A stretch of 64,000 bases of DNA from a virus (Duplodnaviria; Heunggongvirae; Uroviricota; Caudoviricetes). The notes below the pieces were generated by a model, which ran no database searches, was not told the origin of the DNA, and was given only the letters and a program-made list of their open reading frames with translations. The translations under genes were made by a program, and so were the position numbers. The stretch lies in the IMG/VR virus record IMGVR_UViG_3300028888_000110. One strand, written 5' to 3'. Every line of letters starts with the position of its first letter. The first letter of the stretch is position 1. Of this stretch, positions 1,286-17,449 are shown one piece after another.

Positions 1286-1651
1286 ATGGAAAAATTATTA
1301 GAGCTAATGAACGAATATGCTCATACATATGCAGACCATTATGATGATACGGGGAAAGAAATAGAGATGAAATTTTTAGAGCATACTGATAATTGTTTTA
1401 TATATTATTGTGATTGAAAGTTTGACAGTTTAGTAGATGATGTAGTTATAAGTAAGAGGTTCGGTTTTATAAAACGACTTATAGAGAAAGATAAGATAGA
1501 CAAAGATAAATTATACAATTCTGAATATAAGCCATACTTTTGGAATAGAAAAACAAATGCTTTTAGCTGATTTTGGGCAGAGAATATCTTACTAATGCTA
1601 CTTGCTATCCAAAACGAGCCTATAAACTTTTTAATCTCTACGTTAAAGTAA
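1286..1651 (+). CDS. hypothetical protein (122 aa); paralog of 2401-2778
   Basis: Code-25 translation reads MEKLLELMNEY...GFIKRLIEKDKI...LLAIQNEPINFLISTLK. It shares GFIK-L-E-DKI and LAIQ-EPI-FLIS-LK blocks with the 2401-2778 product. TAA stop. Confidence 0.5.
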
Positions 1652-1894
1652 AATGCACTACACAAAAGAATGAATTATTGAAGTAAGGGAAGATATCTTC
1701 ACTCAGATTAAGGCTGAGAACGACTTACTTACTCAAGAGAATGTAGAACTTAGAAATAAACTAGAGCTCACAATTAGATTATGTGCTGCTTGGGGAAGGG
1801 CCGCTACTGAAAATGAGAAATTACTTAGAGACGTAGAGAAAAAGATTGAGGAGTTGGAAGAATATAAATGGATGTATGAATGACTTTGATAATA
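1652..1894 (+). CDS. hypothetical coiled-coil protein
   Basis: Its ATG overlaps the upstream TAA (TAAAATG). The frame stays open when TGA is read as Gly. Coordinates approximate. Confidence 0.35.
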
Positions 1895-1916
1895 TTTATA
1901 TAATTTACCAAAAGGA

Positions 1917-2177
1917 AATGAAAAAAGAAAAATCTGAATGACAGATAGAACAAATTGTAGATAAGACATATCTACTTATTAAGTCTTTTGATTTTAAAAA
2001 GATAAGTGAAGATATAGAATATCTACCATTTTGTAATATACTTATGAAATGACACGATGGCAGAAGTAAAAGGAGAGAATGTAAACCAAAAGATTTAGCA
2101 ATTCTATTATTTATTCTAAAGAAGAGGAGAGAAAAGATAAATAGTTTAATTGAAGAAATAGAAAACTTTTTAAATAA
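1917..2177 (+). CDS. hypothetical protein
   Basis: Open frame with three in-frame TGA codons. Ends ...LIEEIENF then TAA. Coordinates approximate. Confidence 0.3.
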
Positions 2178-2400
2178 CCTTAGTATATAAATATGAGATA
2201 TTTTGATATTAGGATAAGGTGTGAGAGGCTGAAAAGCAGAATAAAGTTAATCAACCAGAGAAAGAAATGCTATAAATCATTATGGAGATTTAATAATGGA
2301 TATATGGTTTGGAAATGAAACGAAGAATTGCCGTACTACCTTACACTTAAAGATATACAAAAATGTAAATCAGACTTTTTATCTATTAAATAATTAGGTT

Positions 2401-2778
2401 ATGGAAGGAAAGAAAGAAAGCTGAATAGAAACTCTAATAGAGTTATTGAATGAGTATGACCCTTGTATAGCAAGTGATGGAGAGCATAGAGATAACTTAT
2501 GGGGATATGCTTATCAATGACATAGTGCAGTATTCCCAAAAGAATTAGCAGAGAGCTATATAATAACGGCTCGTTATGGTTTTATTAAATGGTTAGTAGA
2601 GAATGATAAGATAGAACGAGAAAAGTTTTGAAATTCTGAAACCAAATCAAGTAAGTATTCAGATTTTGAGTTGAGTTATGATACTCCACGAGAAGATTAT
2701 ACCAATACTCTACTAATGGAGTTAGCAATACAAGATGAGCCTATTGAGTTCCTTATAAGTATTCTGAAAAATGTGTAA
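2401..2778 (+). CDS. hypothetical protein (126 aa); paralog of 1286-1651
   Basis: MEGKKESGIETLIELLNEYDPC...GFIKWLVENDKI...LAIQDEPIEFLISILKNV. Four in-frame TGA codons. TAA stop. Confidence 0.5.
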
Positions 2779-2844
2779 AATCATTCCCCAAAAGTACTGA
2801 AAAATGTGAAATGGGGAATAATCAGACTTTTATATTTATTACCT

Positions 2845-3048
2845 ATGGAGATGGAAAAGAAAATTAAAAAGCTGATTAAGGAGGTAAAAGAGAATAAAAA
2901 TCCTGCTCTTATATTAAATAGAGTTTTAGATGCAGAAGAAATAAATTGGATATACGAACATACTAAACCCAAGCACCAAGAATGATGGTTTAGAGAAGAA
3001 TGAAAGCTGGTGTATTATTGACCTAATTGAGAAAAATATTAGACTTTT
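2845..3048 (+). CDS. small hypothetical protein
   Basis: Preceded by the conserved AATCAGACTTTTATAT..CTAAAGG motif. Coordinates approximate. Confidence 0.35.
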
Positions 3049-3068
3049 ATATTATTTATCTAAAGGGA

Positions 3069-3212
3069 ATGGAAAAAGAAGAAAAAAAATCTGAAAGAGA
3101 AATAGAGTTAGAGCAAACCATTGAAGATTTGAGAACGAGTATAAAATGGAATGCTATAAGAGATATTATACGATGAGTGCTAATATTGATTTATGCTATT
3201 GTAGTAAGTTAG
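3069..3212 (+). CDS. small protein (47 aa) with C-terminal TM segment
   Basis: Sits behind the conserved upstream motif (copy at 3040-3068). MEKEEKKSEREIELEQ...GVLILIYAIVVS. TAG stop. Confidence 0.4.
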
Positions 3213-3247
3213 ACTAATCAGACTTTTATATTATTACTTTAGGGGGG

Positions 3248-3454
3248 ATGAAAGACTTCACAGACTTTACAGAATGATTTTTGATAGGGCTTGCTATACT
3301 TGTGATTCTAGCTAGTGTAGGGCTTTATATGTATATGATGTGTTATCTTGTGATTAATGACCATTGGGTGTGGGTCGCTATTATCGCTAGTATGACCTTC
3401 TGTATCTGATGTGGTGTAAGTAATATGGACTGACCGTTTGATGATTTATTATAA
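3248..3454 (+). CDS. small membrane protein (68 aa, 2 predicted TM)
   Basis: Sits behind the conserved upstream motif (copy at 3225-3247). Hydrophobic: FLIGLAILVILASVGLYMYMMCYLVINDHWVWVAIIASM. Confidence 0.4.
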
Positions 3455-3479
3455 CTTTTATATTATTTACCTAAAGAAA

Positions 3480-3638
3480 ATGGCATTTGTAATCATCTTC
3501 CTAGCCCCATTTAGTTTGCTCATATGCGCTATGCTATTGTGAGTAGTAGATATGACATTATTTGATGGGGCTTTGTCTGAGTTTTTAAGAGCTTGGACAC
3601 ATCATTGGCTAGATAAATATAAGCCAAGGGAAAAATAG
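3480..3638 (+). CDS. small membrane protein (52 aa); paralog of 3663-3851
   Basis: Sits behind the conserved upstream motif (copy at 3460-3479). Shares a ...HW-DK-KP.. C-terminus with the next gene. Confidence 0.4.
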
Positions 3639-3662
3639 TTTTATTTCTTGTTTATTATAAAG

Positions 3663-3851
3663 ATGAGCGAAGCTTGTGAAACTTGTTGAGGAGGTTGTAC
3701 TATAGTTGCTACAATATTTATTATAGCAATGATATTAGTTATATTGTATGCACTTATCGAGGGTATTAGTGGTTGAGAGTTCGGTGAATGGATAGGAGAT
3801 TGGGTTAGTCATTGGATTGATAAACTACCTAAACCAAAAGACGAAGATTAG
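3663..3851 (+). CDS. small membrane protein (62 aa) with CETCGGGC motif
   Basis: Hydrophobic core TIVATIFIIAMILVILYALI. C-terminus HWIDKLPKPKDED resembles the previous gene. Confidence 0.4.
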
Positions 3852-3878
3852 TTTTTTATTTATTATTTATTATAACCT

Positions 3879-4676
3879 ATGAAAAACTTTATGGTTTGAT
3901 GTTGGAGTATTATTATTCTACTCCTAGTTATCTGTGGTTTTAACTCTTGGTTTGTAGTTGAACCTGGATACAATGGATTTACTGTTACATTAGGTAAGGT
4001 AAATTCAACTGTTTACACGGATGGATTGCATTTCAAAACTCCATTCATTACTAAGTCTGTAAAGTATAATGTGCAGACACAAAAATTAGATGCCACAGCT
4101 GATGCTAGTTCAAAGGACTTGCAGAGTGTTGGTGCTACTATTGTAGTTAACTACAAGTACAAGGAAAGCGAAGTAGTAAACCTATACAAAAATGTAGGTA
4201 AAGAAGAAAGAGTAGCTGAAAAGATTATTACTCCTGCTATCCAAGAAGTATTTAAAGCCGTAGTTGCTAAGTATTCAGCAGAAGAATTAATCACAAAGAG
4301 AAGTGAGGTATCTAAAGATATTGAGGATACATTGAACAAGAGACTAGAACAGTATGGAGTTCAAATTCAACTATTTAATATTGTAAACTTTGACTTTAGT
4401 AAATCATTCAACGATGCTATTGAGGCTAAGGTAACAGCTGAACAAGAGGCATTGGCAGAAAAGAATAAACTAGAGAAAGTTAAATATGAAAGTGAGCAGA
4501 AAATTGTTGCAGCAGAGGCACAAGCTAAAGCTATTGAAATTCAAGCTAAGGCTATTCAAAACCAAGGAGGTAAAGAATATGTTAACCTTAAATGGATAGA
4601 GAAATGGGATGGTAAATTGCCTGTAACTGTAGCTTGAGAAGATAGTTCATTTATAATGATGATGGATAACAAATAA
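3879..4676 (+). CDS. SPFH (band-7/prohibitin/stomatin-family) membrane protein, 265 aa
   Basis: N-terminal TM (MKNFMVGCWSIIILLLVICGF) followed by an SPFH-like core (VVNYKY...ITKRSEVSKDIEDTLNKRLEQYGVQI...) and a coiled-coil AEQEALAEKNKLEK tail. The track ORF 4026-4637 is the internal fragment. TAA stop. Confidence 0.6.
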
Positions 4677-4822
4677 TGTATAATAAAGTATGTGCCATAA
4701 TATGTATAGTGTGTAGTGCTATAGGTATGATTATAGGACTAATTCAAAAGAACACATTCGCTCGGATAATATGGGCATTGTGTCTAGGAATATGGATTTA
4801 TAATTTAACCCAATCAGAGTAA
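4676..4822 (+). CDS. small membrane protein (48 aa)
   Basis: ATG overlaps the upstream TAA. Ends NLTQSE*, paralogous to the next gene's NLTQLE*. Confidence 0.35.
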   Translation: MYNKVCAIICIVCSAIGMIIGLIQKNTFARIIWALCLGIWIYNLTQSE

Positions 4823-5010
4823 TGTGGCAGTTTATATTAGACGAAGTACTTAAACCTATTGTATTTACTACTTTCTGAATTGCTGTTGGTTTTATATGGT
4901 GTTTATGTATAGTTGCTAAAGAGATATGAGACTTAGATGTAACTATACATACTCAGCCAACACAAGAAAGTTGTATAGAGTTATTTAGTAATTTAACTCA
5001 ACTAGAGTAA
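4822..5010 (+). CDS. small membrane protein (62 aa)
   Basis: Overlapping start. TM segment FTTFGIAVGFIWCLCIV. Confidence 0.35.
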
Positions 5011-5156
5011 TGAAAAAGAAATATTTGTTTATCCCTATGTGAATGTTTTTATTTGTAATGTGACTATTACGCATAGAACATTGAAATGAAGTATGATGGG
5101 GGATATTTGAGGTAGTTGTTTGAGCAGTTTTAATTGTTATTTATTCTGTAGACTAA
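5010..5156 (+). CDS. small membrane protein (48 aa)
   Basis: Overlapping start. Hydrophobic LFIPMGMFLFVMGLL...VVVGAVLIVIY. Confidence 0.35.
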
Positions 5157-5548
5157 TGAAACGATTTAAACCATTCACTCCACCTAGTATTAAGAAATCT
5201 AAATGGGCTAACTCCTGGGACAAAAAAATGAAAGAGTTAGCACATATAAATTGAAGGTGGGTAATTACTAAAGAGAAATATTGAAGAATGGATGCCTCGC
5301 TTGAATGAGGTAGCGGTATAATCCTAGAAGAAACAATGGAAGATTATGAAGCTCTTAGTGAAGAAAGTTGTATGTATTGTAATAGGCATTGCAAACAATA
5401 TTGGACTCACGAAAACAGTTGGGTTATTCATCTATGCCTCCCTTGTTTAATAGGGGACAAGATTACAATTTTACTTGAAAGAATTATTAAACGATGGAGG
5501 GAGAAAAACGACAGAAGCGATTGATATACCTCATTTACATCTGCATAG
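5156..5548 (+). CDS. hypothetical Cys/His-rich protein (130 aa; CMYCNRHC...HLCLPC)
   Basis: The track ORF 5336-5524 is its C-terminal fragment. A zinc-ribbon-like C-X2-C...C-X2-C pattern. Confidence 0.4.
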
Positions 5549-5654
5549 GAGAGATTATTCTCTTCTGTGTGTGGGTATATCTAGAAATAGAATATTGAAA
5601 ATGAACAACACAGTTGCCTGATAATGTATATATTAGTTCAGAACTAATAAACAC

Positions 5655-5702
5655 TTGAAACAGGGTCAATGAAGAAAAAATTGACCCTGAATTGACCCTG
5701 TT
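5655..5702 (+). promoter_or_regulatory. triple-repeat palindromic element (AACAGGGTCAAT...ATTGACCCTGA-ATTGACCCTGTT) upstream of the methyltransferase gene
   Basis: One inverted and two direct copies of TTGACCCTG. Copy 1 can pair with copy 2 (10 bp) or copy 3 (12 bp), giving alternative hairpins or an operator with three half-sites. Confidence 0.4.
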
Positions 5703-5737
5703 CTAATGAAAACCTTTATATTAAAACAAAAACAAAA

Positions 5738-7774
5738 ATGAAAGTATTATCCTTATTCGATGGGATAGCCTGTGGGTATGAAGCTCTAAAAAGAGCAGGC
5801 ATCCCTATTGATGTTTACTATGCTAGCGAGATTGACAAGCACGCAATCAAAGTCGCCAAGGCTAACCATCCAGATATCATAGAGATTTGAGATGTGTGCC
5901 AGGTTAAAGGAGAAGATTATCAAAGTGTTGACCTAGTAATTTGAGGGAGTCCTTGTTTTGTCAAGTGAACTAAGGTATGGACTTATGATTGATACAAGGA
6001 TATATCTGAAGTTGAGGTGTGAGATTATGTTCTATGACTTAACTGAGAATATAATCAAGTGCTAAAAACTTGATGAGAATCCAAAGAAATATGGAGTATA
6101 AAATGACAATGATTTTTAGAAACATTTACTACAGAAAATCATCCATATTATGTAGCGAAATGTAAAAGGGTATGACATGAATGACGTAGAGAACTACAAG
6201 ACCCAGAGCGAAAAAAAGTTAAGGATATTGAGGTGTGAGATTATGTATGATTGCCAATTATCCATACTAAAGAAAACGTAAAATGAATCACACTTCAAGA
6301 AGCTTGGCTATTGTGAAGATATATGGCTGATTGACATACTAGAAAAGACTATAAAAAAAATAGAAAATGAGAGAAGTCTTCTAATAGGTATTGGACAGTT
6401 ATATATTCTATATGAGATTCTAAACTTAATGATTTCGGCCATATAACAGAGTATCATGTCTGAAAGCAAAAACATTCACAATCAACTTATAGATTTGTTA
6501 TTAATAGTAAAAGATTAGTAGAACTATGTGAGGATATATGATGCTGAGCTATTAATAAATCTATACCTAAATGGATATTAGATTTGCCAAGAGAACTCTT
6601 AATTGAATTCTTTAAATGATATGTATCGTGAGATTGATATTATAAAGGAAAGTGAGTGCGGAGATGTAGTACAATAAGTAGAGATATGGCTATGTCTTTA
6701 TGTTTATTATCTGCAACACTATTTCACACCTGAGCACAAATACATTTTTATAAAAAAGCAAAGACACACACTATTCAATGAAGAATCGTAAACCAAAATG
6801 ATTGCTATGAAGTTGAAATAAGAGAATACAGAAAACCACAAGACCATTATATGGTCACTTATGATTATATATGGTTTCCAGTAAAAGAAGTAAAACCATT
6901 ATGATATGAGGATATGGTATATAACCTTGAAGTAGAAAATACCAATAGTTATACGGCTAATAATATAGTAGTTCATAATTGTCAAGGGTTCTCTATGGCT
7001 GGTAAGATGCTAAACTTCAATGACCCTAGAAGTAAATTATTCTTTGAGTTTGTAAGATTAGTAAAGGAATGTAAGCCAAAGTTCTTCTTGCTCGAGAATG
7101 TGAAAATGAAAAAAGAATATATTGAAGTAATTAACGAGCAACTTTGGGGAATAGAGCCTACACTTATCGACTCTGCTTTAGTAAGCGCCCAAAGAAGAAA
7201 ACGTTTGTATCGAGTTGGTAAGCTCCAAGAAGATGGAACTTATGCTAAGGTAGAAATCCCACAGCCAGAAGATAAAGGTATTCTATTAAAGGATATATTA
7301 TTAAACTATGTCGAGCCTAAATACGATATTAGTGAGAAACATACCATAGCAATGAAAAATGCTAGAAGTTGTGGAGAATTAAATCTACCTAGTTTAGATT
7401 GAAAATGCTGAACTATTATAGCTTGATACTATAAAACTCCACAAGATGGGCCATACATTCTAAAAGATTATATTCTCACAGATAGACAAATAGATATGAT
7501 ATCTAAGCGATGAGGGTATGAAAAGCCTTTGGAAAGAGTGAGATGACCAGAAGATAAAATGGACACTCTCACTACACATTGTGGCAAAATGTCTAATGGT
7601 ATTAAGTTGGTAAATGTGCCAAAGATTAGAAAGCTTCACCCTATAGAATGTGAGAGATTGCAAACCCTACCAGACAATTATACGGAGGGGGTTAGTGATA
7701 CTCAAAGGTACATCCAACTTTGAAATGGCTGGACGTGCGATGTAATAGCACATATATTTAAATGTTTAAAATAG
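5738..7774 (+). CDS. DNA (cytosine-5)-methyltransferase (Dcm family) interrupted by an intein. Mature extein is about 336 aa.
   Basis: Motif I LFDGIACG. Motif IV is split: DLVIGGSP precedes the intein and CQGFSMAG follows it. Then ENV (LLENVK), QRRKR, and motif X TQRYIQLGNGW. The conserved Gly positions are encoded by TGA. Preceded by the leader AAACAAAAACAAAAATG. TAG stop. Confidence 0.8.
5954..6979 (+). mobile_element. intein (342 aa) with LAGLIDADG homing-endonuclease domain, inserted at the catalytic Cys of the methyltransferase PCQ motif
   Basis: N-terminal block CFVKGTKVWTYDG...VGDYVLGL. Block B TENH. Two LAGLIDADG motifs (WLLGRYMADGH and FFKGYVSGDGY). C-terminal block VYNLEVEN..NNIVVHN followed by the +1 Cys of CQGFS. 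Length 1026 nt, in frame. Confidence 0.75.
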
Positions 7775-7778
7775 TAAA

Positions 7779-8507
7779 ATGAGATTACCAGAGAGTGAAA
7801 GAGCATTTCGTATTATGTGAGGTTATACGGTATGAACTCCTCTTCAGCACGAATATCAAGATACTTTAGTGAGGTCTTATATGCGTGACAAGTTAAGAAT
7901 TTATGTACGACCTTTTTGACCTGTAGATACTCTAGACGGAGAAAGTATTCAACCTTCTTTTGGTTGACACATTCAGTATTGTGCTGCATTAGATTTCCCT
8001 GTAACATTTGAATGGGATATGCCTCACGACTTACATAATATAGCTTGCAATTTGTGTGAATATTTAGATAAAGAGGTAGCTGAGATATTGTATTCAGAAA
8101 TTGAATCATATTTTAATCGCACTTTAGCAGAGTTACAAATAGATGGCGAAAGAGACGGTTTCCTCGCAGATGTCTTTCAAGTAAAATTCCCTCCTTTTCA
8201 AGATGGGGCAAGAAGGGCAAGAGCAACCACAACAGTTACAACTACTCCTATACAAATAGGTGCGAACCCATCCACATATGCATCTGATGTAGTTTCTCGC
8301 CAAGATATGGATGCTTATTGAGAAAGTATAGTTGATAGAATGGAACGTAGGATAGCAGAAGTGGAAGAAAATATGATGAGGACTGCATATCGTGGAGATA
8401 GACTATCTAATGGATTAGAATATATAACTCAAGATGAATACGAAGAAAAGAGAAGAGACTGAGAGTTAGACCCAAATAGAGTTTATTTAGTTTTTAATAA
8501 TAGTTAA
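7779..8507 (+). CDS. hypothetical protein (242 aa)
   Basis: The continuous code-25 frame was verified codon by codon from ATG 7779 through 7965 (TGA) and into the track ORF 8019-8321, then on to TAA at 8505-8507. The minus-strand track ORF 7813-8109 is spurious. Confidence 0.5.
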
Positions 8508-8509
8508 TT

Positions 8510-8944
8510 ATGAGACAACCTGAAAAAGAATGTGCTTGTGAAAGCACAAGAGAAAACTTAGACTTTTTAAATGAAGCAGTTTTCTGAGTAGCCAAGGATA
8601 TTATTGAGCACGGAAGAGTTTTAGATTTGTATGCAGAAAGAATCTATTCTACAGAAGAAGCTTGCTTCTGAGTTGATTGAGAATGAGGATTCAAGAAAGA
8701 GATAGAGACAATAAAGAAAGACCAAATCATAGATGCAGAGAATTTATCAGATGCTATTGATATTATGGCAAACCTACAAAAAGCAGATAAAATGACACTT
8801 GATATAATTGTTAAACAAAATGAAACAATTAAACTTTTAAGTGATGAAGTTAATAAATCGTATAATGGTATCATATTCCTTACAGTATGGTCACTTATTT
8901 TAACAGTTTTAACTGTTATTACTTCAACAAATGTATTCTTCTAA
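8510..8944 (+). CDS. hypothetical protein with C-terminal TM helix (144 aa)
   Basis: MRQPEKECACESTREN...IIFLTVWSLILTVLTVITSTNVFF. Four in-frame TGA codons. Confidence 0.4.
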
Positions 8945-8954
8945 TCACATTAGT

Positions 8955-9152
8955 ATGGGCTTTGGCTGTTGCCATTGCCCATATTGTCGTCACGTCCATA
9001 AAACTAAGTATGGGTATTATAAAAAATACAAATCATATTGGTGAGGGCTTCGTCCATATCAATACAGAAAGATTATAAAAAAACTTCGTCAGCATAAGCA
9101 TGACGAGGAATTACCTAATAGACTTTTTAATATCATGCCCTACACAGACTAA
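8955..9152 (+). CDS. small basic Cys-rich protein (65 aa; GFGCCHCPYCRHVH)
   Basis: Zinc-ribbon-like and Lys/Arg-rich. Its stop overlaps the next start (TAATGG). Confidence 0.35.
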
Positions 9153-9367
9153 TGGCTATAGAACAAGAAATCCCTTTTGAAGAATATAGAGATAGGCAAC
9201 TTCGCTTGCCTTTTACAGAGGAGCTAGATAAAATATTATCTGCCCATCCAGAGATGGTAGAGTTTGTTATCCACCCACACGACGATATGGTGGATGTAAA
9301 GATAGGAGGAGCTACATATTATGTTATTACAAAAAGGCAATATCATCTCTTGGTGGATGAAGAATAG
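9152..9367 (+). CDS. hypothetical protein (71 aa)
   Basis: Intact ORF in the supplied track with no TGA. Confidence 0.45.
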   Translation: MAIEQEIPFEEYRDRQLRLPFTEELDKILSAHPEMVEFVIHPHDDMVDVKIGGATYYVITKRQYHLLVDEE

Positions 9368-9539
9368 GTTATAAAAATTATAATAAAAAATATAATCTAT
9401 TTATAATGGAAGTCTCCGCCATTGTGGGGTGTTCGCACCAGACGGATTTAATCTGTACCACATAAAGAGGACAAGAGGTATAGTCTGCACCCTCTCTATA
9501 GAAATATAGGAGGAGAAGATTTAACTTTTAAACCAAAGT

Positions 9540-10124
9540 ATGGCAACTAAACGATTAAAAGTTCTCATAGTTGTTATGTCTGCTATCCTAGTATTTATGT
9601 TAGGGTTTAATGCATGACACTGAGAGGACATTGTATCTGAAGTGCAAGTTCAACCTGCCATTGAGACAGGGAGTGTAGCTACTTGAGAGGTAAAAGAAAT
9701 TGAAACAGTAATTTACACTCGAGAAGATACAAAAAAAGAAATTGCAGAAAAATTAAATTCACTTATTGGGGATTACAATATTAGCTATGCAATCATCCAT
9801 GAGTGCTCAACTCAAACAGATGATTATAAGCTATGTGTGACTAACCTACTCTGAGTAGCTAATGCTGAGAGTAGTATGTTCAAAGCAGGAATGAAACCAA
9901 GCAACAATGGTTTTTGATGGCTATATAAATGAAAGAAAAGAAAATTCTCAAGCGTAGAAGAATCCATAAAGCAATGGGTTGCAATGTACGTAAGGAATAA
10001 TTGGGGAAAGAGAGTTACTTGAGACGCACGGTTGAAAGGTAACTATTGCACTAGCTCCTGCAGTAATTGGGTGAAAGCCTATAACTCAGCAGCTAAAAAA
10101 ATAGAAAAACTTGAACTCTGGTAG
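9540..10124 (+). CDS. exported/membrane-anchored protein (194 aa), possible cell-wall hydrolase
   Basis: Strong SD (AGGAGGAG) 10 nt upstream. N-terminal TM/signal (LKVLIVVMSAILVFMLGF). Frame verified: start 9540 and TAG 10122-10124 are both mod 0. The AIIHECS...NAESSMFKAG segment is only weakly reminiscent of lytic transglycosylase E-S motifs. Confidence 0.4.
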
Positions 10125-10151
10125 CTCAAGTAATTCGACTATACCTCTTTA

Positions 10152-10185
10152 TAAAAAAAGACTTGACAACTCTATCTAATACACT
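10152..10185 (+). promoter_or_regulatory. sigma-70-like promoter TTGACA-N17-TATAAG
   Basis: cTTGACAactctatctaatacacTATAAGg, about 50 nt upstream of the 10238 gene. Confidence 0.4.
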
Positions 10186-10237
10186 ATAAGGTAGATGTGG
10201 AAAATAAATTTACCCAAAAACAAAAGGCAAAAACAAA

Positions 10238-10495
10238 ATGAGAGTCGTACCTCAAATCCTTCTTAAAGAAGGAGATTTAGTAGAAAGTCCCAACGGGAAT
10301 CATATATGGTGCGTAGTGGGAGACATAGAGTGAACCCCTATGTTATCTGATGGCACCAATATATTTTGTCCTAGTTGGGGCTTTTATTTTAAAAAAGATG
10401 ATTGAAGTCTTACCCCAATAGTTGAGGATTCTTCGGTTTTAAAACGCTACAAGTTTTATTTTAATTTTGACACCGAAAGTACCTGGGGTTTTTAA
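10238..10495 (+). CDS. hypothetical protein (about 85 aa)
   Basis: Leader AAAACAAAATG. Frame followed to a TAA near 10495. End approximate. Confidence 0.35.
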
Positions 10496-10827
10496 AATAA
10501 AAAGTGGCAATATTACCACTTTCCTACACAAAATTATTTTACTTTATATTAGTTGAGAGTTGATGAACAATTATTATCCTCTGTCGCGAGTTCGCAGACA
10601 GTTATGAGATGAAGAAGTTCAGCAAATGGTGGTAACCCCAACCGAGAGAAAAGGCTGGAGCTACTTATTTGCCAATAATGACTGAGAGTGGTTGGTAGTA
10701 CAGACAAATGCCCACCACTCAATAACCTCTGTATCCTTTACCCACAAATACAAAGGGCTTTGAATGTCCCTAAAGAGGGCCAAAACAAAATGATTTAGAA
10801 TATGCCGATACCCCGGTAGGCTAGTCA

Positions 10828-11213
10828 ATGAAGAAAATTAGATATAGACTAGCGAAAATATCGAGCGAGGTATGTTATAAAGATTTCCAAATTGAAGTCA
10901 AGGGGAATTTTAAAATATATTATATAATGAAAAATTCAGCATCTAACAAGCGAAAATCTATGACATTTAAAGAAACCAAACAGGGGCTATACCGTGAGGC
11001 TATAGCAAACAAAATGGAATGGACGGATGAACTCGACTGAGACTTCTCTACCGAAGTAGAATTTCTTCTCGGTCTAAAGGGCCGATGGCTCCTTTGCCAT
11101 ATAAGGAAAGAATATCCTTACACTATTAGATTTAGACTTATAGGGGAGAAAGACTACGAGAAGGCTAAGCCAGAAAAATTCATTACGCTTGCAAAACAAA
11201 AGCTTTTACATTA
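10828..11213 (+). CDS. hypothetical protein (about 128 aa)
   Basis: The track ORF 10828-11040 continues through one TGA to a TAA near 11213. It overlaps the 3' end of an alternative upstream ORF (10563-10841, MNNYYPLSRV...). Which of the two is expressed is unclear. Confidence 0.3.
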
Positions 11214-11225
11214 AACAAAAACGAT

Positions 11226-11510
11226 TATGGGAATAAATCCATATAAATCAGTGAATGGCTACACCGTAGTCTATAACCACTGAGCTATTAAAATTATTAC
11301 TAAGGATAAATTGGACGTTATGGAATGAGTGATATACCTACCAAAATCTCTCATACAATTTATTTTAGAACAAGATATTCCTTCACCATTAAAAGCTTCA
11401 GTGCTATCAATTAATGAAGAGGTGTGATGTTTAGTGGATGCTATTTGTTTTTCTCCCGACGAGAAAACGGGGTTCTTAACTCTAAAGAATCTATATTATA
11501 TAACAAAATA
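11226..11510 (+). CDS. hypothetical protein (94 aa)
   Basis: Open code-25 frame MGINPYKSVNGYTVVYNHGAIKII... to TAA. Confidence 0.35.
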
Positions 11511-11519
11511 AAATTCCTC

Positions 11520-11547
11520 TTGACACAGGAAATAAAATCCTTATAAA
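11520..11547 (+). promoter_or_regulatory. sigma-70-like promoter TTGACA-N16-TATAAA
   Basis: TTGACAcaggaaataaaatcctTATAAA, 15 nt upstream of the 11562 start. Confidence 0.4.
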
Positions 11548-11561
11548 AGGGTTACCTTTAT

Positions 11562-12275
11562 ATGAAAGGTACCTTTATTTACGTTATTATTATCGCAATG
11601 CCAATCTATTGACAGAAAACTTCAACAGAGGATAAGCCTCGTCACCCATCTCTTTCTTGGGCTAATTGGAAGAATTGAGCTTTTGTTGCTTGGAATAGAG
11701 ACACACAAGCTGAAGAAGAAATCAAGCTTCCTTCTAAATTCTTTGTAGTAGCAGAAAGCTGGAGTATCAAAGGATATTTAGCAGAGAAATGATGAGTTTA
11801 CTCAAATGAAATTTACAGCTTCCCTAACGATGTGTTAACCGTTAGAAGTGGTAGCTGAGAAGTTTTATATGAATGACTATGGGCAGACATAAAAGATAAG
11901 ATTAAATCTTTAGGTTTGAAGCTTATCAAGAATGTACATTACATCGACCCTAAGAAACCAGAAGAATTAAGAACATTCTGTATCAAGGGTGCTGCTTTAA
12001 AAGAGTGGATGGAAACATTCTCTGATGAAAATAGAAACGCAGCTTGAAATAACTTCCTTTCTGAGGGAGAAGTAAAAGAATGAAAAACTTGAGCAGTAAC
12101 TTACACCTTCCCTTCATTTAAAATTGGAGCAGCATTAACTGAAAAAGAAAGAGCTGTACAACAAGAATGGGGAATTAAGTTACTTACTTATACTCAGGCC
12201 ACAATTACTTCTAAAGAAGAAGTAGAAGAAAAAGCTGCAGTCAAATATGATGACGATAATTTACCTTTTAACTAG
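11562..12275 (+). CDS. hypothetical protein (about 237 aa), possibly DNA-binding/recombination-associated
   Basis: Long open frame with seven TGA-Gly codons and an acidic C-terminus (KYDDDNLPFN), as seen in some phage ssDNA-binding proteins. No motif-level proof. Confidence 0.35.
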
Positions 12276-12502
12276 GAGATGAGTAGCCTCCTAAAAAGGC
12301 TCAATTTAATTTAAGACAATATACTATGGCGAATACAAGTTACGAGTTAGGGTGAAAAACGTTTTTAAAATGTAAAGGATGCTGAGAATTTAAGGAACTT
12401 AATACTGAAAATTGGTATACCCATAAGGAGGGATACCTTTGAGTCCTCTGAAGGTGTAAAAAATGCATCTTAGCTTGAAGGAAAACAGAGCACGAACGCA
12501 AA

Positions 12503-12826
12503 ATGGCAAGGGAAAGAGATAAGGATAGATATTATAACAATCCTAAAAGAAGAGAATATGTATATCAATCTTCAAAAGAAAGAACTGAAAGACATGAAAA
12601 AGAAGGTGGTTGATGGAATAAATATCATCTAAGAACTAATAGAATAATAAAAAAATTATGAATCCGTCCTAAGGAATGCCCTATATGTTGATATAAATGA
12701 CGCATCGTCGCTCACCATCCTGACTACAAGGAGTGGAATAAAATTGTTTTTTGTTGCCAACCATGTCATGACAAAATTCATAAGAAAAAATTAGATAAGT
12801 ATACAGTCATAGATTTATTGAATTAA
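12503..12826 (+). CDS. HNH endonuclease (about 107 aa from the first ATG; the in-frame Cys-rich region from 12350 may extend it)
   Basis: Frame verified by position. CPICGYKGRIVAHHPDYKEWNKIVFCCQPCHDKIH is a classic C-X2-C...HH...N...C-X2-C-H HNH zinc-finger nuclease signature. Upstream in frame lie CKGCGEF and CKKC, but no ATG. Confidence 0.55.
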
Positions 12827-12850
12827 TTTTATTAGTTTATACCTGGCATT

Positions 12851-13600
12851 ATGCTCTACCACCAATTTGCACCTCTTAAGGAAGATTATAAAACTATTAT
12901 AGTTTCAGTGACGGAAATAGAGAAAGCTCTAGTACCTGCTCCTTCTTTTGTTCAAGACTTGGAACCAAAGAAGAAAGCTAACACATATTGGGTATGAAAC
13001 CTAGTAGAAAACATTGTCTTTGCTAGAATAAATCAATGAGTTGAGGCAGCTCAACACCAAATCGAGATTGCTAGATGAATGATGAACCCAGAAAGGATGA
13101 GATACTTTTCTGCTAGTTGAGTAGAAGATAAACAGTTCTTGCGATTGTATGATTGACTAGAACAGCTTATTCCATTATCTGAGCAATATGAAGCTATAGG
13201 TATGTATGATATAAGAAGCCTTAGGAGTGCAGTCGAGGTAGACTTTAGCTGATATAAAATAATTCTCACGTGAGAAATAGATTGGGGAATGAATTGAAGT
13301 ATGCTTTTTGATTGCAAGACAGCTAAGAAAAAATGGGATGAGAATGAGAAACGAGAGTTAGGGTGTTATCAATGAAGATTTTACCCTTGGTTCCAATTCC
13401 TACAGCATCCAGATATAGATTCTATAGCATTTAGTTATCTAGTATTCACAAAGCAAAAAACAATCCAACACCAAAACATTACTCATATCATTAAAAGAGA
13501 TGAGGCAGAGCAATTCGTGAAAGAAAAGCTCTACGATTATTTAGTGTGAGTTCATAAAGGGGATATACAAACCACGGAAGGCTCACTCGATAGAATGTAA
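12851..13600 (+). CDS. hypothetical protein (249 aa), possible PD-(D/E)XK-type nuclease
   Basis: Open frame with ten TGA codons. The ILTGEIDWG...ELGCYQGRFYPWFQ region loosely resembles nuclease motifs. Weak. Confidence 0.3.
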
Positions 13601-14060
13601 TGAATAAAGATAGTCAACGTTGAGCTGCAACAGAGCTCATTGAACTTATAGCTAATCTTATTGCTAGTTATTCACATCATAGTGAGCTATACAATTCTAT
13701 ACAATCTGACCTAGTTCATCCTGAGTTATTCACGGAAGAACAAATAAAACAGATGGAAGAGGATAGTATGTGGCACTATCAAAAAATGACTAGCCTCTTG
13801 GAGGAGAGAAGACTAGCTATGAGAAAACTGAAAGAAGGGGCTGTAGAATGTGACGACCATATGCGATGCTTGGTTAAACATTCTATAGCCTCTTATCAAT
13901 TTAGCCAAGAAGTTCTAAATACAAATATGGATGACTTAGATTATATCCACTTGGCTGAAACTGCTTACCAATATATGTATGAATGTGTGAGCAAATTCCT
14001 ATGAGTCACATTGGTAACCTGTGCTAGGTGCCTAGAAGATGAACTCAATTTACAAAAATA
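13600..14060 (+). CDS. hypothetical protein (153 aa)
   Basis: Its ATG overlaps the upstream TAA (ATGTAATGA). Contains track ORF 13753-14004. Confidence 0.4.
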
Positions 14061-14070
14061 AAAAAATAAT

Positions 14071-14634
14071 ATGCAAGAGAATATCTATGAAAAGGTATTA
14101 AACTTGTACAAAAAAGATTTAGATAGTTGACGTATTCTTCTTTATGAAAATATGCAACTCTTGATGAGGAGAAACCCACTTCTTCGTCACAAGAATTATA
14201 CCTTTACTAAAGATGACATCTGTTCGGAAGCGTTTATGATAGCTGATGATATCTTGCTAAGAAAGGATATTCCAGATGAAAAGAAAATATCTAAACTATG
14301 GTACTTATTTAATAGATGAGGCTGAGCCTTGTATAATAAGTTAAACCAATATGGACTAGAGAGTTATACTATAGATGATATTAGGGATAGCGAAAATCGA
14401 AGCTACGATATGGATGTCGATATGCTACAGTATGTGCTAGTAATTAATAATATAATTACCCCATTGGAAGCAACTGTGCTCCAATACCTATGAGATTGAA
14501 GGGGGAAATATGAAATCGCAAGACTAATGAAAACCACATACTATAATGTGAGGGATATTGTAGACACAATTGCCCTTAAAGTTAAAAGATTTTTATCAGA
14601 ACAAGATGATTTAGAAAATGCAGACAACAGCTAG
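14071..14634 (+). CDS. sigma-70-family RNA polymerase sigma factor (187 aa)
   Basis: C-terminal region-4-like HTH ATVLQYLGDGRGKYEIARLMKTTYYNVRDIVDTIALKVKRFL and an N-terminal region-2-like part. Frame checked: start 14071, TAG 14632-14634. Confidence 0.55.
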
Positions 14635-15196
14635 AGGAGTTCGTAAGGAACTCAAGCAGATAATTTCTGTGTACCAGTGAGTAATAGAGTTCTCAATAGA
14701 GAAACTGGGAATGGAAATAATAATTAAGCAAGCTAAGGCTGACCCAGATGACTTGTTGGACTCTATTAATAATCACTTGATAGAAGTATGCTGAAATTAT
14801 CTAGAGACCCATAGCATAGGGCTCGATAAATATCAATTAGCAACTATCATTATGGACCTATATACTAAGACAATCTCTGAACTAGATGAACCATTTCGTG
14901 TGACAATTAAAGAATCAAAGCACCTAATTCAAGATTACCTAGAAAAAAATAAGGCTAAGAAAGAAACATTAGAAAGAATTAAGAAAGAGAATGAGAACTT
15001 AGATAAGGAGGTAGCTATTAGAAAGAAGGAGCAACAAGAGAAAAAGGTTAATTTAAGGCCAGAACCCGAAATGCCGAGTGAAAATTTAGAAGTGGGGTAC
15101 ACGGGGACCCAAGCCCCCTCTCCTAAGCCAAAGAAAACGAGAGCTAGATGAACCGACGCTCTTGCTATTGACCACTTCGTTTTACCTTGATTATAA
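14618..15196 (+). CDS. hypothetical Glu/Lys-rich protein (192 aa)
   Basis: Frame verified by position from ATG 14618 (overlapping the sigma gene by 17 nt) through track ORF 14852-15151 and two TGA codons to TAA 15194-15196. Confidence 0.45.
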
Positions 15197-15201
15197 TAGG
15201 G

Positions 15202-15651
15202 ATGCAAAAACTTGATTATATTCGTAGAGCTCCTTGAATTACTGATTTCAATACTCTAGTAGATAAGCTAAACGAAATCATAACTAAGCTCAATTCAAAA
15301 ATAGAAATAGAAGAAGTCGCTATTTCTAGAGAAATAAAAGACTTCACATTCTTTAAAGGGGAAGAAACTAAACTACCATACCACATAGAATATGCCATTA
15401 CGTCTAACGAAGATGCTACAAAAATCTTCGAGCTATATAACTTCTCCTATAAAGAGATAAAACAAATCAATGACATTATCATTAAATGAAATGTCGTTGC
15501 TCTTACAATAGATGTAACTGAGGAAATGACAGAGAAAGATAAAAAACAAGAAGTTATATTTGAAAAGGTGGAAGCTATTGAGTTAGATAAACCTATTAAG
15601 GTTAAATGAAAGAGAGGAAGAAAGCCTAAAAAGAAAACCTCTTGGGAATAA
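15202..15651 (+). CDS. hypothetical protein with basic C-terminal tail KGKRGRKPKKK (149 aa)
   Basis: Open code-25 frame. AT-hook-like tail suggests DNA binding. Confidence 0.35.
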
Positions 15652-15677
15652 AAATTTATTTAAACAAAAACAAAAAT

Positions 15678-16136
15678 ATGTCATTTGTATCTGACCTTGC
15701 AGTAGGCGAAGCTTGCCAAATAGAATTTGCTAAGCTATTACTTGATACGGAGAAGGTTATTAGCCTTGAAATCGCTCAATGAAAGTTTAAACTTTGGGAT
15801 ATAAGAATTACTACCCCAGAATGAGAGAAGACCTATGAGATAAAAAAGGATTTAAAAGCCCCAGAAACAGGAAACTACGTGATTGAAACTCGCTGTTCGT
15901 GAAAGCCCTCTGGTATCTATACTAGTAAAGCAGATTACATAGTATATAATGTAAAGTGAGAATGGTGGTGTCAGGAGAGGTGAGAGTTAATCCTTAGACT
16001 TATGGATGTAGAGAAACGTACTACTAAATGAGGGGATTGACGAAGGGCTGAAATGTTTGTATTAAGTTGCGATACCTTACCTATTTTATTCACCAAAATA
16101 GAAACAAATGGACAAACTTGAGAAGAAAATAATTAA
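15678..16136 (+). CDS. hypothetical protein (about 152 aa)
   Basis: Leader AAACAAAAACAAAAATATG. Frame followed to TAA 16134-16136, overlapping the next gene by 29 nt. Confidence 0.35.
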
Positions 16137-16392
16137 GCAAGAAAATGCTATAGCTGAAACCTTAAAAGAATTCCTAAAACATTTTAATAGAGTTTGGTAT
16201 TCTATAAAGGAGCCTAAGGAAGAATTAGAAAAATTCTTTGACTTGCAGGATAGCTGAGATGGTATAGTCTATATATTTGTGAAGACTAAAGAATGAGATT
16301 TTTCTATGGGCTACACTATGGATGTCAGCCTAGATGATATGCAAAGTATGGTTAATTATCTCAAACTAAGAGCAGATGTTTATCTTAGATAA
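16108..16392 (+). CDS. hypothetical protein (94 aa)
   Basis: Frame verified to TAA 16390-16392. Confidence 0.4.
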
Positions 16393-16401
16393 AAAACAAA
16401 A

Positions 16402-16908
16402 ATGTCTAAACAAAAACAAAAATTTGAATGATGGGAGCGAGATTGTGTAGATGCTGATGTATCGATAGACACTCCTGTTACATTAGTATTATATTTCTAT
16501 GGGAATATACCTAGTAAAAAAAATTGAAGAAGAAATTTCTGAAATATTTCATTACCATCAGCCAATTACGTAGAACGAAATAAAAGGATAACTAATAAGT
16601 TAAAAGGGTTTGTCCCTCTACTATGATTAGGTCCTTATTCTATAGATATAAAAACAATAGCCCACACTAAAAGAAGAAAGGATTGTGATAATGTTGTCTC
16701 TAGTATTATGGACACTCTACAAGACTTAGAATTTATCTCTGACGACGACAATGAAACGATTAGAAAAATAACCGTGACTAATGTGGGATATATAAAGAAT
16801 GCCCCCATTGCTAGAATAGAAATAAAACAATATTGTGAAGAATGATACAATATTGATACAGACCACAAAGGGAAAGACTTAAAACAATATAAATATTATT
16901 TAAATTAG
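16402..16908 (+). CDS. rusA: RusA-like Holliday-junction resolvase (168 aa)
   Basis: GNIPSKKNGRR...KRRKDCDNVVSSIMDTLQDLEFISDDDNETI matches the RusA acidic D-x-D-N / DDD catalytic cluster. Leader AAACAAAAACAAAAATTTGAATG. Frame verified to TAG 16906-16908. Confidence 0.55.
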
Positions 16909-16931
16909 TTTTATTATTTACAAAAATAAAA

Positions 16932-17431
16932 ATGGCAAAAAAAGTTGCAGTAAATGTTAGAGAGGCTAAATTAATGGAACAAGCTTTCTCAAAGAATTCA
17001 TTTAGATATCTCACTCTAGATGAACATAAAACTTTAGACAAGGCTTATAAAACCTTAAAAGAAAGTGAGGTATATAATAAAGTAGGATGAGAAATCCAAG
17101 CAGAAGCAGAAAGATTAGTTGCAGAAAAATGTATGCCAGAATGGAATAGAATCTCTGAAGAAATGAAACCTTTAGGAGAAGAGAGAAACAGATTAGCGAA
17201 GGAGAAGGCAGAAGCAAAAGAATGAGAATGGCTACAGGAAAGTGAGGATAAATTAATAGAAGTGGATAAAAAAATAGCTGATTTATCTAGTGAATACCAA
17301 TCAGTCACAGATAAGGCTAATGCCGAATTAAATGAATTTAAAGAAGAAAAAATTAATAGCACAAAAGAAGCTTGTTTCTTCTTAAGTGAAGAAGATTACC
17401 AATTTGTAGGTGAATTATGCTGATTTTACTC
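16932..17431 (+). CDS. hypothetical coiled-coil protein (about 165-180 aa)
   Basis: Open frame from ATG 16932. The 3' end is uncertain (hand-translation frame ambiguity, 17431-17473). Confidence 0.3.
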
Positions 17432-17449
17432 TGCTAACTAAACTATCAC

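What the first reader, a model, noticed from the sequence alone, without database searches (positions are those of the whole stretch)
5738..7774. LAGLIDADG intein inserted precisely at the catalytic cysteine of a phage C5-cytosine methyltransferase
The MTase motif IV is split as GGSP | CFVKGTKVW...(342 aa)...NIVVHN | CQGFSMAG. The inserted element has intein blocks A, B (TENH) and G (VVHN plus a +1 Cys), and two LAGLIDADG motifs (LLGRYMADGH, FFKGYVSGDGY). Splicing would regenerate PCQ with the nucleophilic Cys as the +1 extein residue. Inteins usually target catalytic sites, but a Dcm-type MTase is an uncommon host protein, and here the system also uses TGA=Gly.
Basis: partly seen in the sequence, partly recalled or inferred. 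Interest (0 to 1): 0.75.

Follow-up and report, generated by a model that had tools for sequence, protein, structure and literature searches.

The report
Intein splitting a phage cytosine methyltransferase
A phage that reads TGA as glycine carries a self-splicing, mobile protein insert (an intein with a homing endonuclease) exactly at the catalytic cysteine of its DNA cytosine methyltransferase; the call is correct, but the same insert at the same site turns out to be common in public phage and bacterial genomes.

Summary
Window 5738-7774 (+) is one 678-codon reading frame if TGA is a sense codon (36 in-frame TGA, TAG stop). Residues 73-414 (nt 5954-6979, 342 aa) are a class-1 intein with a two-motif LAGLIDADG endonuclease. 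It sits between Pro and Cys of motif IV (GGSP|C...VVHN|CQGFS) of a C5 cytosine methyltransferase.

With the insert removed, the exteins match Pfam DNA_methylase end to end (E 7.7e-52). They align through the junction with M.HhaI GFPCQAFS. TGA=Gly holds for the gene and the whole window.

The claim that this host protein is uncommon does not hold. Same-site inteins occur in 39 GenBank phage records, including coliphage A4, P1-like RCS47, Lactobacillus phage Nyseid and Propionibacterium phage B22. They also occur in 75 of the best 80 IMG/VR loci and in at least 22 GTDB genomes, two of them TGA=Gly MAGs.

Two results go beyond the finding:
- An intein-free, TGA=Gly allele of nearly the same methyltransferase exists (L171).
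- The intein encodes 28 of 30 glycines with TGA, against 8 of 26 in its host gene. Two other code-25 loci show the same contrast.

Verdict: a real but divergent (at most 45% identity) new member of a known kind.

The parts
5738..5953 (+). N-extein of the C5 cytosine methyltransferase (72 aa; motif I LFDGIACG; ends with GGSP of motif IV)
   Evidence: It aligns with PF00145 from profile position 1 and with M.HhaI residues 14 onward. Homologues start at the same Met.
5954..6979 (+). Intein, 342 aa, class 1 (Cys1 ... His-Asn), with a LAGLIDADG homing endonuclease domain; 28 in-frame TGA (Gly)
   Evidence: Pfam Intein_splicing 40.3 bits, above the cut-off. PDB PI-PkoII at 1e-6 alone and 1.7e-17 with the family profile. 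It carries all 21 invariant family columns.
5954..5956 (+). Intein Cys1 (TGT), nucleophile of the first acyl shift; preceded by Pro(-1)
   Evidence: Invariant in alignment A2.
6128..6151 (+). Intein block B, TTENHPYY (Thr60-x-x-His63)
   Evidence: T60 and H63 are invariant in A2.
6308..6337 (+). First LAGLIDADG motif, LLGRYMADGH (catalytic Asp126; Gly121 and Gly127 encoded by TGA)
   Evidence: It aligns with the PI-PkoII endonuclease domain.
6608..6640 (+). Second LAGLIDADG motif, FFKGYVSGDGY (catalytic Asp227; Gly222, 226 and 228 encoded by TGA)
   Evidence: The Pfam LAGLIDADG_3 hit covers residues 216-256 at 20.8 bits.
6917..6979 (+). Intein blocks F and G, VYNLEVENTNSYTANNIVVHN, ending in His341-Asn342
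   Evidence: TIGR01443 intein_Cterm scores 18.3 bits against a cut-off of 15.6.
6980..6982 (+). Cys+1 (TGT): first C-extein residue and catalytic Cys of motif IV (PCQ) after splicing
   Evidence: It aligns with the Cys of M.HhaI GFPCQAFS.
6980..7774 (+). C-extein of the methyltransferase (264 aa; motifs IV CQGFS, VI ENV, VIII QRRKR, IX, X GNGW) plus TAG stop at 7772-7774
   Evidence: It is 89% identical in protein to the intein-free allele L171.

Best explanation
The gene encodes a 678-aa precursor of a phage orphan-type C5 DNA cytosine methyltransferase, interrupted by a 342-aa class-1 intein. The following mechanism is inferred from conserved residues and was not tested. After translation, with TGA read as Gly, Cys1 attacks the Pro(-1)-Cys1 peptide bond. 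The thioester passes to Cys+1. Asn342 cyclises and releases the intein, and an S-to-N shift restores the peptide GGSP-CQGFS. The enzyme lacks an intact active-site loop until it has spliced, and the residue that completes splicing is the residue that later attacks cytosine C6. The excised intein carries a two-motif LAGLIDADG endonuclease. This enzyme would cut intein-free alleles of the methyltransferase at the motif IV coding sequence, and repair would then copy the intein in (homing). An intein-free allele in another TGA=Gly virus, a patchy distribution among homologues, and a codon usage unlike that of the host gene all show the insert has its own history. This is one more member of a widespread family of inteins that target this exact site.
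For: Reading frame and boundaries.
Intein identity: Pfam and NCBIfam hits, PDB by sequence and by profile, and all splicing and endonuclease residues present (C1, T60, H63, D126, D227, H341, N342, C+1).
Proxy structure: a model of the 44%-identical family member P0004 (mean pLDDT 78) matches PI-SceI, TliVMA, PI-PkoII and I-DmoI.
Extein continuity: PF00145 positions 1-321 of 324, and M.HhaI aligned through the junction.
Same site elsewhere: 17 of 17 metagenomic relatives, four GenBank phage genes inspected plus Mannheimia phage 587AP2, 39 collinear GenBank records, 75 of 80 IMG/VR loci and 22 of 67 GTDB loci.
Presence or absence: intein-free allele L171 reads DLIFGGSP|CQGFSMAGKMLNF, and about 400 intein-free phage homologues exist.
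Separate history: Gly is encoded by TGA in 28 of 30 intein codons against 8 of 26 extein codons (Fisher p 9e-7), and GC is 29.7% against 35-41%.
Against: There is no experimental evidence of splicing or cleavage. Pro at -1 abolished splicing when engineered into another intein (PMC13014065). All members of this family nevertheless have Pro at -1, so they are presumably adapted to it. Block F has Asn where many inteins have Asp, but most members of this family also have Asn there. The Pfam LAGLIDADG_3 score for this sequence alone (20.8 bits) is just below the cut-off of 22.5. No near-identical copy of this intein was found elsewhere, so recent mobility is not shown.
Confidence: 0.9

Rival explanations
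1. The intein still splices but its endonuclease is dead. It would then be a resident, immobile intein inherited vertically with the gene.
For: The nearest relatives are only 39-45% identical. No near-identical copies were found in IMG/VR or JGI metagenomes. Endonuclease-less mini-inteins at the same site show that the family does lose the domain (P0014, P0015, P0017).
Against: The endonuclease domain is full length. Both catalytic Asp residues and every invariant family column are retained. Codon usage differs sharply from the host gene. The sequence flanking the site is mosaic against the intein-free allele, which fits transfer.
Confidence: 0.25
2. The intein no longer splices, so the methyltransferase is a dead gene kept only as a carrier.
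For: Pro at -1 is unfavourable in engineered inteins (PMC13014065). Frameshifted same-site copies exist in other contigs (L006, L008).
Against: A 2034-nt frame stays open with no TAA or TAG. All splicing residues and all methyltransferase motifs are intact. Pro at -1 is universal in the family.
Confidence: 0.06
3. Splicing is conditional, for example controlled by the redox state of Cys1 and Cys+1, and times methyltransferase activation during infection.
For: There is no direct evidence here. The insertion at the catalytic Cys makes activity strictly dependent on splicing. Conditional splicing is documented for other inteins; this rests on established knowledge and was not tested here.
Against: The patchy distribution, the endonuclease domain and the intein-free close allele are explained fully by a selfish element. 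No regulatory feature was seen.
Confidence: 0.1
4. The TGA codons are real stops and the region is a decayed pseudogene in a standard-code genome.
For: Under table 11 the frame has 36 stops, and no tRNA is encoded in the window.
Against: Only TGA interrupts the frame. TGA columns align with Gly in homologues, including all conserved Gly of the LAGLIDADG motifs. The whole 64-kb window has the same property.
Confidence: 0.01

Closest known systems
Same-site inteins in GenBank phage C5 methyltransferases: Escherichia phage A4 A4_120 (USL83787.1), other Asteriusvirus phages, Lactobacillus phage Nyseid (AUV59832.1), Propionibacterium phage B22 gp50 (YP_009596853.1), P1-like phage RCS47 Dmt (CDN90818.1), Mannheimia phage 587AP2
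   Same: The insertion point is identical (xP|C...HN|CQ). The size is similar (312-346 aa). All share Cys1, TxxH, HN, Cys+1 and two LAGLIDADG motifs, and the precursor is collinear over its length.
   Different: Intein identity is only 28-33%. These phages use the standard code. The records call the genes methyltransferases or hypothetical proteins without naming the intein.
Metagenomic relatives P0001-P0012 and IMG/VR loci L011-L019 (gut and other phage contigs)
   Same: These are the closest intein sequences found (39-45% identity), at the same site, with full-length endonuclease domains.
   Different: They have no in-frame TGA and so use the standard code. Their methyltransferase subfamilies are partly different.
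Same-site inteins in TGA=Gly MAGs: L103 (Candidatus Gracilibacteria JAUZRO010000052.1) and L105 (Candidatus Peribacteria CAZPIB010000002.1)
   Same: Same site, same genetic code, and the same near-saturation of Gly codons with TGA in the intein but not in the extein.
   Different: They are 35-36% identical to this intein, so they are a different lineage. Their exteins belong to another methyltransferase subfamily (YSFP/GGFP...CQDIS).
Actinophage DNA methylase inteins (Kelley et al. 2016, PMC5050341; PMC9957025; bioRxiv 10.1101/2025.01.02.630785)
   Same: These are phage-borne LAGLIDADG inteins in DNA methylases, with patchy distribution and horizontal transfer. The 2025 survey lists C-5 methylase (IPR001525) as a host.
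   Different: The 2016 paper lists only N6/N4 methylase hosts (PF01555). No paper found here mentions insertion at the catalytic Cys or an alternative genetic code.
PI-SceI, PI-PkoII and TliVMA inteins (solved structures)
   Same: Hint splicing domain with an inserted double-LAGLIDADG endonuclease.
   Different: The host proteins differ (V-ATPase, DNA polymerase). Sequence identity is about 11-15% in the structural alignments of the proxy model.

Membership tests
Intein (class 1, Hint-domain protein splicing element) | Cys or Ser at position 1 | tested here: met
   Cys1 is TGT at 5954-5956 and is invariant in the family alignment.
Intein (class 1, Hint-domain protein splicing element) | Block B Thr-x-x-His | tested here: met
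   T60-E-N-H63 at 6131-6142; both residues are invariant.
Intein (class 1, Hint-domain protein splicing element) | C-terminal His-Asn followed by Cys, Ser or Thr at +1 | tested here: met
   VVHN|C at 6968-6982. TIGR01443 scores 18.3 bits against a cut-off of 15.6.
Intein (class 1, Hint-domain protein splicing element) | Sequence or fold similarity to the Hint splicing domain | tested here: met
   PF14890 scores 40.3 bits against a cut-off of 35.8. The family profile hits gp41-1, DnaB, DnaX, PI-SceI and VMA inteins. A fold match was obtained only for the proxy model of homologue P0004.
Intein (class 1, Hint-domain protein splicing element) | In-frame insertion in a conserved protein whose flanks join into a contiguous homologue | tested here: met
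   PF00145 positions 1-321 of 324 at E 7.7e-52. M.HhaI aligns across the junction. An intein-free allele, L171, exists.
Intein (class 1, Hint-domain protein splicing element) | Protein splicing actually occurs | not testable with these tools
   This needs expression of the recoded gene and mass spectrometry.
LAGLIDADG homing endonuclease (two-motif, monomeric) | Two LAGLIDADG motifs, each with the catalytic acidic residue | tested here: met
   LLGRYMADGH (Asp126) and FFKGYVSGDGY (Asp227). D126, G127, D227 and G228 are invariant.
LAGLIDADG homing endonuclease (two-motif, monomeric) | Similarity to known LAGLIDADG domains | tested here: met
   PI-PkoII endonuclease domain at E 1e-6 with the single sequence and 1.7e-17 with the profile. 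Pfam LAGLIDADG_3 gives 20.8 bits for this sequence, just under the cut-off of 22.5, but all 10 family members hit it, with a best E of 6e-10.
LAGLIDADG homing endonuclease (two-motif, monomeric) | Site-specific cleavage of the intein-free allele | not testable with these tools
   A candidate target is available: the L171 sequence ...GGGGGTAGCCCT|TGTCAGTGATTTAGT....
C5 DNA cytosine methyltransferase (Dcm / M.HhaI type, PF00145) | Conserved motifs I, IV (PCQ), VI (ENV), VIII (QxRxR), IX and X (GN) in order | tested here: met
   After removal of the insert, PF00145 matches end to end and TIGR00675 scores 180 bits against a cut-off of 100.65. The M.HhaI alignment covers motifs I-VIII and IX-X.
C5 DNA cytosine methyltransferase (Dcm / M.HhaI type, PF00145) | Methylation activity and target sequence | not testable with these tools
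   No partner restriction enzyme was recognised in the neighbouring genes.
Genetic code 25 (TGA = Gly; Gracilibacteria and Absconditabacteria and their phages) | In-frame TGA aligning with Gly in homologues | tested here: met
   267 of 526 residues opposite TGA are Gly, and Gly is the majority in 20 of 36 columns. Coding density rises from 11% to 88%.
Genetic code 25 (TGA = Gly; Gracilibacteria and Absconditabacteria and their phages) | A tRNA-Gly(UCA) is available | tested here: not met
   No tRNA gene lies in the 64-kb window. The tRNA is presumably supplied by the host or encoded elsewhere in the phage genome.

The most novel reading that the evidence does not exclude
Inteins in TGA=Gly genomes may form code-locked lineages. 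This intein writes 28 of its 30 glycines as TGA, including every conserved Gly of its splicing and endonuclease motifs, so it cannot be expressed in a standard-code cell. Its host gene uses TGA for only 8 of 26 glycines, and two unrelated code-25 loci show the same contrast. If this is general, the genetic code acts as a barrier that traps selfish elements. The gap in Gly-codon usage between intein and extein would then record that methyltransferase genes enter the code-25 gene pool more recently, or under stronger translational selection, than the inteins that invade them.
Probability: 0.35. Interest if true: 0.45.

Novelty: new member of a known kind. Interest (0 to 1): 0.3.

Why it matters
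As an intein it is ordinary: it is one more copy of a widespread family that targets motif IV of C5 methyltransferases. That family is abundant in sequence databases and poorly annotated, since most GenBank records call the gene a methyltransferase or hypothetical protein. In the papers searched, it appears only as a line in one actinophage survey.

Three points have some value:
- The family always splices next to Pro(-1). Protein engineers find that residue very unfavourable, so these inteins could be useful for splicing after proline.
- This copy, together with the intein-free allele L171, gives a natural plus/minus pair within the TGA=Gly gene pool. It shows that intein traffic occurs among viruses of Gracilibacteria-type hosts.
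- The strong difference in Gly-codon usage between intein and host gene, seen in three code-25 loci, is a simple measurable signal. It bears on how selfish elements adapt to a reassigned code.

Tried and rejected
I modelled the 44%-identical homologue P0004 as a proxy.
- Exact-match DNA searches of IMG/VR with both intein junctions found nothing.
- A scan of JGI metagenome contigs for close relatives of the intein found none.
- A profile search of all six frames of the window, read with table 25, found no second intein.
- Several literature leads mentioned inteins only in other proteins or in reference lists: CASP14 highlights, the Bacillus thuringiensis phage, Nodularia, Thermus phages, phage CBB, PaBG and Pectobacterium CB7.
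- I considered TGA=Trp (table 4) and rejected it. Trp dominates one of the 36 TGA columns, while Gly is the majority in 20.
- I considered a group I intron carrying a LAGLIDADG ORF and rejected it. The insert is in frame and carries Hint blocks at both ends.
- I considered co-conversion of flanking extein sequence during homing as the cause of the mosaic identity with L171. The pattern fits, but ordinary recombination cannot be excluded.

Full report
**Observation**

Window 5738-7774 on the + strand translates under the standard table into a frame broken 36 times. Every break is TGA, and the frame ends at TAG 7772-7774. Read with TGA=Gly it gives a 678-aa protein. The sequence DLVIGGSP is followed by a 342-aa segment that begins CFVKGTKVW and ends NIVVHN, and this is followed by CQGFSMAG.

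**Genetic code**

- The whole window behaves the same way. ORFs of at least 100 aa cover 11% of it under table 11 and 88% when TGA is sense.
- I aligned the precursor with 21 homologues. Of the 526 residues opposite the 36 TGA columns, 267 are Gly, against a background of 6%. Gly is the majority in 20 columns and Trp dominates one.
- All eight conserved glycines of the intein that I checked are TGA, including those of both LAGLIDADG motifs.
- This is code 25, known from Gracilibacteria and Absconditabacteria and from many of their phages (PMC10746230).
- The window holds no tRNA gene. It does hold a portal protein gene (44012-46045, minus strand), a protein with tail-fibre repeats and a 3304-aa ORF. 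It is therefore phage or prophage DNA.

**What the insert is**

- On its own the insert exceeds the Pfam gathering score for Intein_splicing (40.3 bits against 35.8). It also hits Hom_end_hint, Hint_2 and LAGLIDADG_3 below their thresholds, and the NCBIfam intein C-terminal model above its threshold.
- Against solved structures it matches the endonuclease domain of PI-PkoII (E 1e-6) and the N-terminal Hint part of the gp41-1 and PI-SceI inteins.
- A profile of ten family members raises these matches to 1.7e-17 for PI-PkoII. It adds VMA, DnaB and DnaX inteins.
- The window sequence carries every invariant column of that alignment: Cys1, Thr60, His63, Asp126-Gly127, Lys202, Asp227-Gly228 and Asn342. 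It also has His341 and Cys+1.
- The tool would not fold a table-25 translation. As a proxy I modelled homologue P0004, which is 44% identical overall. The model has mean pLDDT 78 and matches PI-SceI, TliVMA, PI-PkoII and I-DmoI. Its N-terminal part matches DNMT3A.

**What the host gene is**

With the insert removed, the 336-aa product matches Pfam DNA_methylase over positions 1-321 of 324 (E 7.7e-52). It matches TIGR00675 dcm at 180 bits. It aligns with M.HhaI straight through the junction: dlviggsPCQgfsmagk against DILCAGFPCQAFSISGK. The +1 Cys is therefore the motif IV Cys. By established knowledge of M.HhaI, that is the catalytic nucleophile, Cys81.

**How it most likely works**

These steps are inferred and not shown. 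The precursor cannot methylate DNA because motif IV is split. Class-1 splicing would then rebuild PCQ:
1. Cys1 makes an acyl shift at the Pro-Cys bond.
2. The thioester transfers to Cys+1.
3. Asn342 cyclises and releases the intein.
4. An S-to-N shift restores the peptide bond.

The freed intein, a two-motif LAGLIDADG enzyme with both catalytic Asp residues, would cut intein-free alleles at the motif IV coding sequence. Repair would then copy the intein in.

**Evidence that it is a separate, mobile element**

1. An intein-free allele exists in the same genetic code. IMG/VR contig 3300031867_004413 (L171) encodes MRVLSLFDGMACG...DLIFGGSP|CQGFSMAGKMLNF, with in-frame TGA at Gly positions. Its C-extein is 89% identical in protein.
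2. The two genes are mosaic. Nucleotide identity is 93% over spliced positions 341-900. It is only 65-73% on both sides of the insertion site and 62% at the 3' end. Nothing else in L171 matches the window. This fits co-conversion of flanking sequence during homing, although ordinary recombination would give the same pattern.
3. About 400 phage homologues in GenBank lack the insert and 39 have it.
4. Codon usage differs. The intein encodes 28 of 30 glycines with TGA and has 29.7% GC. The exteins use TGA for 8 of 26 glycines and have 35-41% GC. The window mean is 63% TGA (Fisher p 9e-7; binomial p 1.7e-4 and 8e-4 against the mean).

**Comparison with what is known**

The data say otherwise.

- All 17 metagenomic relatives of the intein (39-45% identity) lie in PF00145 proteins at the same site.
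- Among GenBank phages the same site is occupied in Lactobacillus phage Nyseid, Escherichia phage A4 and other Asteriusvirus phages. It is also occupied in the Dmt of P1-like phage RCS47, Propionibacterium phage B22 gp50 and Mannheimia phage 587AP2. Collinear matches also occur in jumbo Erwinia and Yersinia phages.
- In IMG/VR, 272 stretches encode relatives, and 75 of the best 80 have the xP|C...HN|C(Q/T) context.
- In one-genome-per-species GTDB, 22 of the 67 loci examined have that context. They come from Clostridia, Campylobacterota, Neisseria, Bacteroidaceae, Spirochaetaceae, Escherichia, Mesorhizobium and a Desulfurococcales archaeon.
- Two of those loci are TGA=Gly MAGs: L103 (Candidatus Gracilibacteria) and L105 (Candidatus Peribacteria).
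- Mini-inteins without the endonuclease occur at the same site (P0014, P0015, P0017).
- In the literature I could search, methylase inteins are described for actinophages. The 2016 survey lists N6/N4 types (PMC5050341). A 2023 paper follows one methylase family (PMC9957025). A 2025 preprint lists C-5 methylase (IPR001525) among intein hosts (10.1101/2025.01.02.630785).
- I found no paper that describes insertion at the catalytic Cys, or an intein in a code-25 genome.

**Points beyond the finding**

- Every member of the family has Pro at -1, the P of PCQ. Pro engineered at -1 abolished splicing in another intein (PMC13014065). The family is therefore presumably adapted to an unfavourable junction.
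- The Gly-codon contrast recurs in the two other code-25 loci. In L103 the intein has 24 TGA and 1 GGN against 17 and 7 in the extein. In L105 the counts are 21 and 3 against 10 and 24. Pooled over the three loci, p is 1.7e-12.
- Those two inteins are only 35-36% identical to this one. The pattern is therefore not inherited from one recent ancestor.
- I cannot say whether the contrast reflects long residence of inteins in very AT-rich code-25 genomes, weak translational selection on a selfish element, or recent import of methyltransferase genes.

**Verdict**

The observation and its interpretation are correct. The element is a divergent new member of a widespread, under-annotated family of inteins that target motif IV of C5 methyltransferases. 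The code-25 setting, the natural empty-site partner and the codon contrast give it modest extra interest.

Noticed in passing
window 41262-42755 (-): This 497-aa ORF next to the portal gene uses TGA for only 3 of its 43 Gly codons (7%), against 63% for the window. It has no Pfam or PHROG hit. Its position suggests a major capsid protein, perhaps avoiding TGA because of high expression, or a recent import.
   Followed up: partly
L103 3001-4035 and L105 3001-4038 (GTDB MAGs JAUZRO010000052.1, CAZPIB010000002.1): Two other TGA=Gly genomes carry a same-site intein in a C5 methyltransferase. In both, the intein is nearly saturated with TGA for Gly (24 of 25 and 21 of 24). Their exteins are not (17 of 24 and 10 of 34).
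   Followed up: partly
L171 71-1078 (IMG/VR 3300031867_004413): This is an intein-free, TGA=Gly allele of the methyltransferase. Against the window gene it shows 93% nt identity in the middle and 62-73% at both ends. The rest of the contig is unrelated to the window, so the methyltransferase module moves between code-25 viruses.
   Followed up: yes
L006 5033-6915 (355-kb JGI contig) and L008 5763-8191 (gut metagenome contig): Same-site intein-containing methyltransferase genes in these contigs are broken by frameshifts, inside the intein or at both extein sides. These may be decaying copies or assembly errors.
   Followed up: no
proteins P0005 and P0008; P0014, P0015, P0017: Family variants. 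P0005 and P0008 have Tyr or Phe in place of the penultimate His, and a CxxC...CxxC insertion just after motif IV of the C-extein. P0014, P0015 and P0017 are mini-inteins of 135-219 aa at the same site.
   Followed up: no
L003 2270-5557 (Escherichia phage RCS47 dmt, FO818745.1): The Dmt methyltransferase of this P1-like phage carries a 341-aa intein at the PCQ motif of its C5 domain. The record annotates it only as DNA methyltransferase. Similar matches occur in other P1-like records.
   Followed up: partly
window 1286-18148 (+) versus 18312-63861 (-): The window has two gene blocks on opposite strands. One holds small genes with fewer TGA codons on the + strand, including the methyltransferase. 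The other is a structural block on the - strand with higher TGA density, including a 3304-aa ORF at 46509-56423 with 182 TGA.
   Followed up: no
window 3879-4676 (+): This 265-aa protein has an N-terminal hydrophobic segment and matches phrog_200 ('lipoprotein') at E 3e-52. It lies about 1 kb upstream of the methyltransferase.
   Followed up: no
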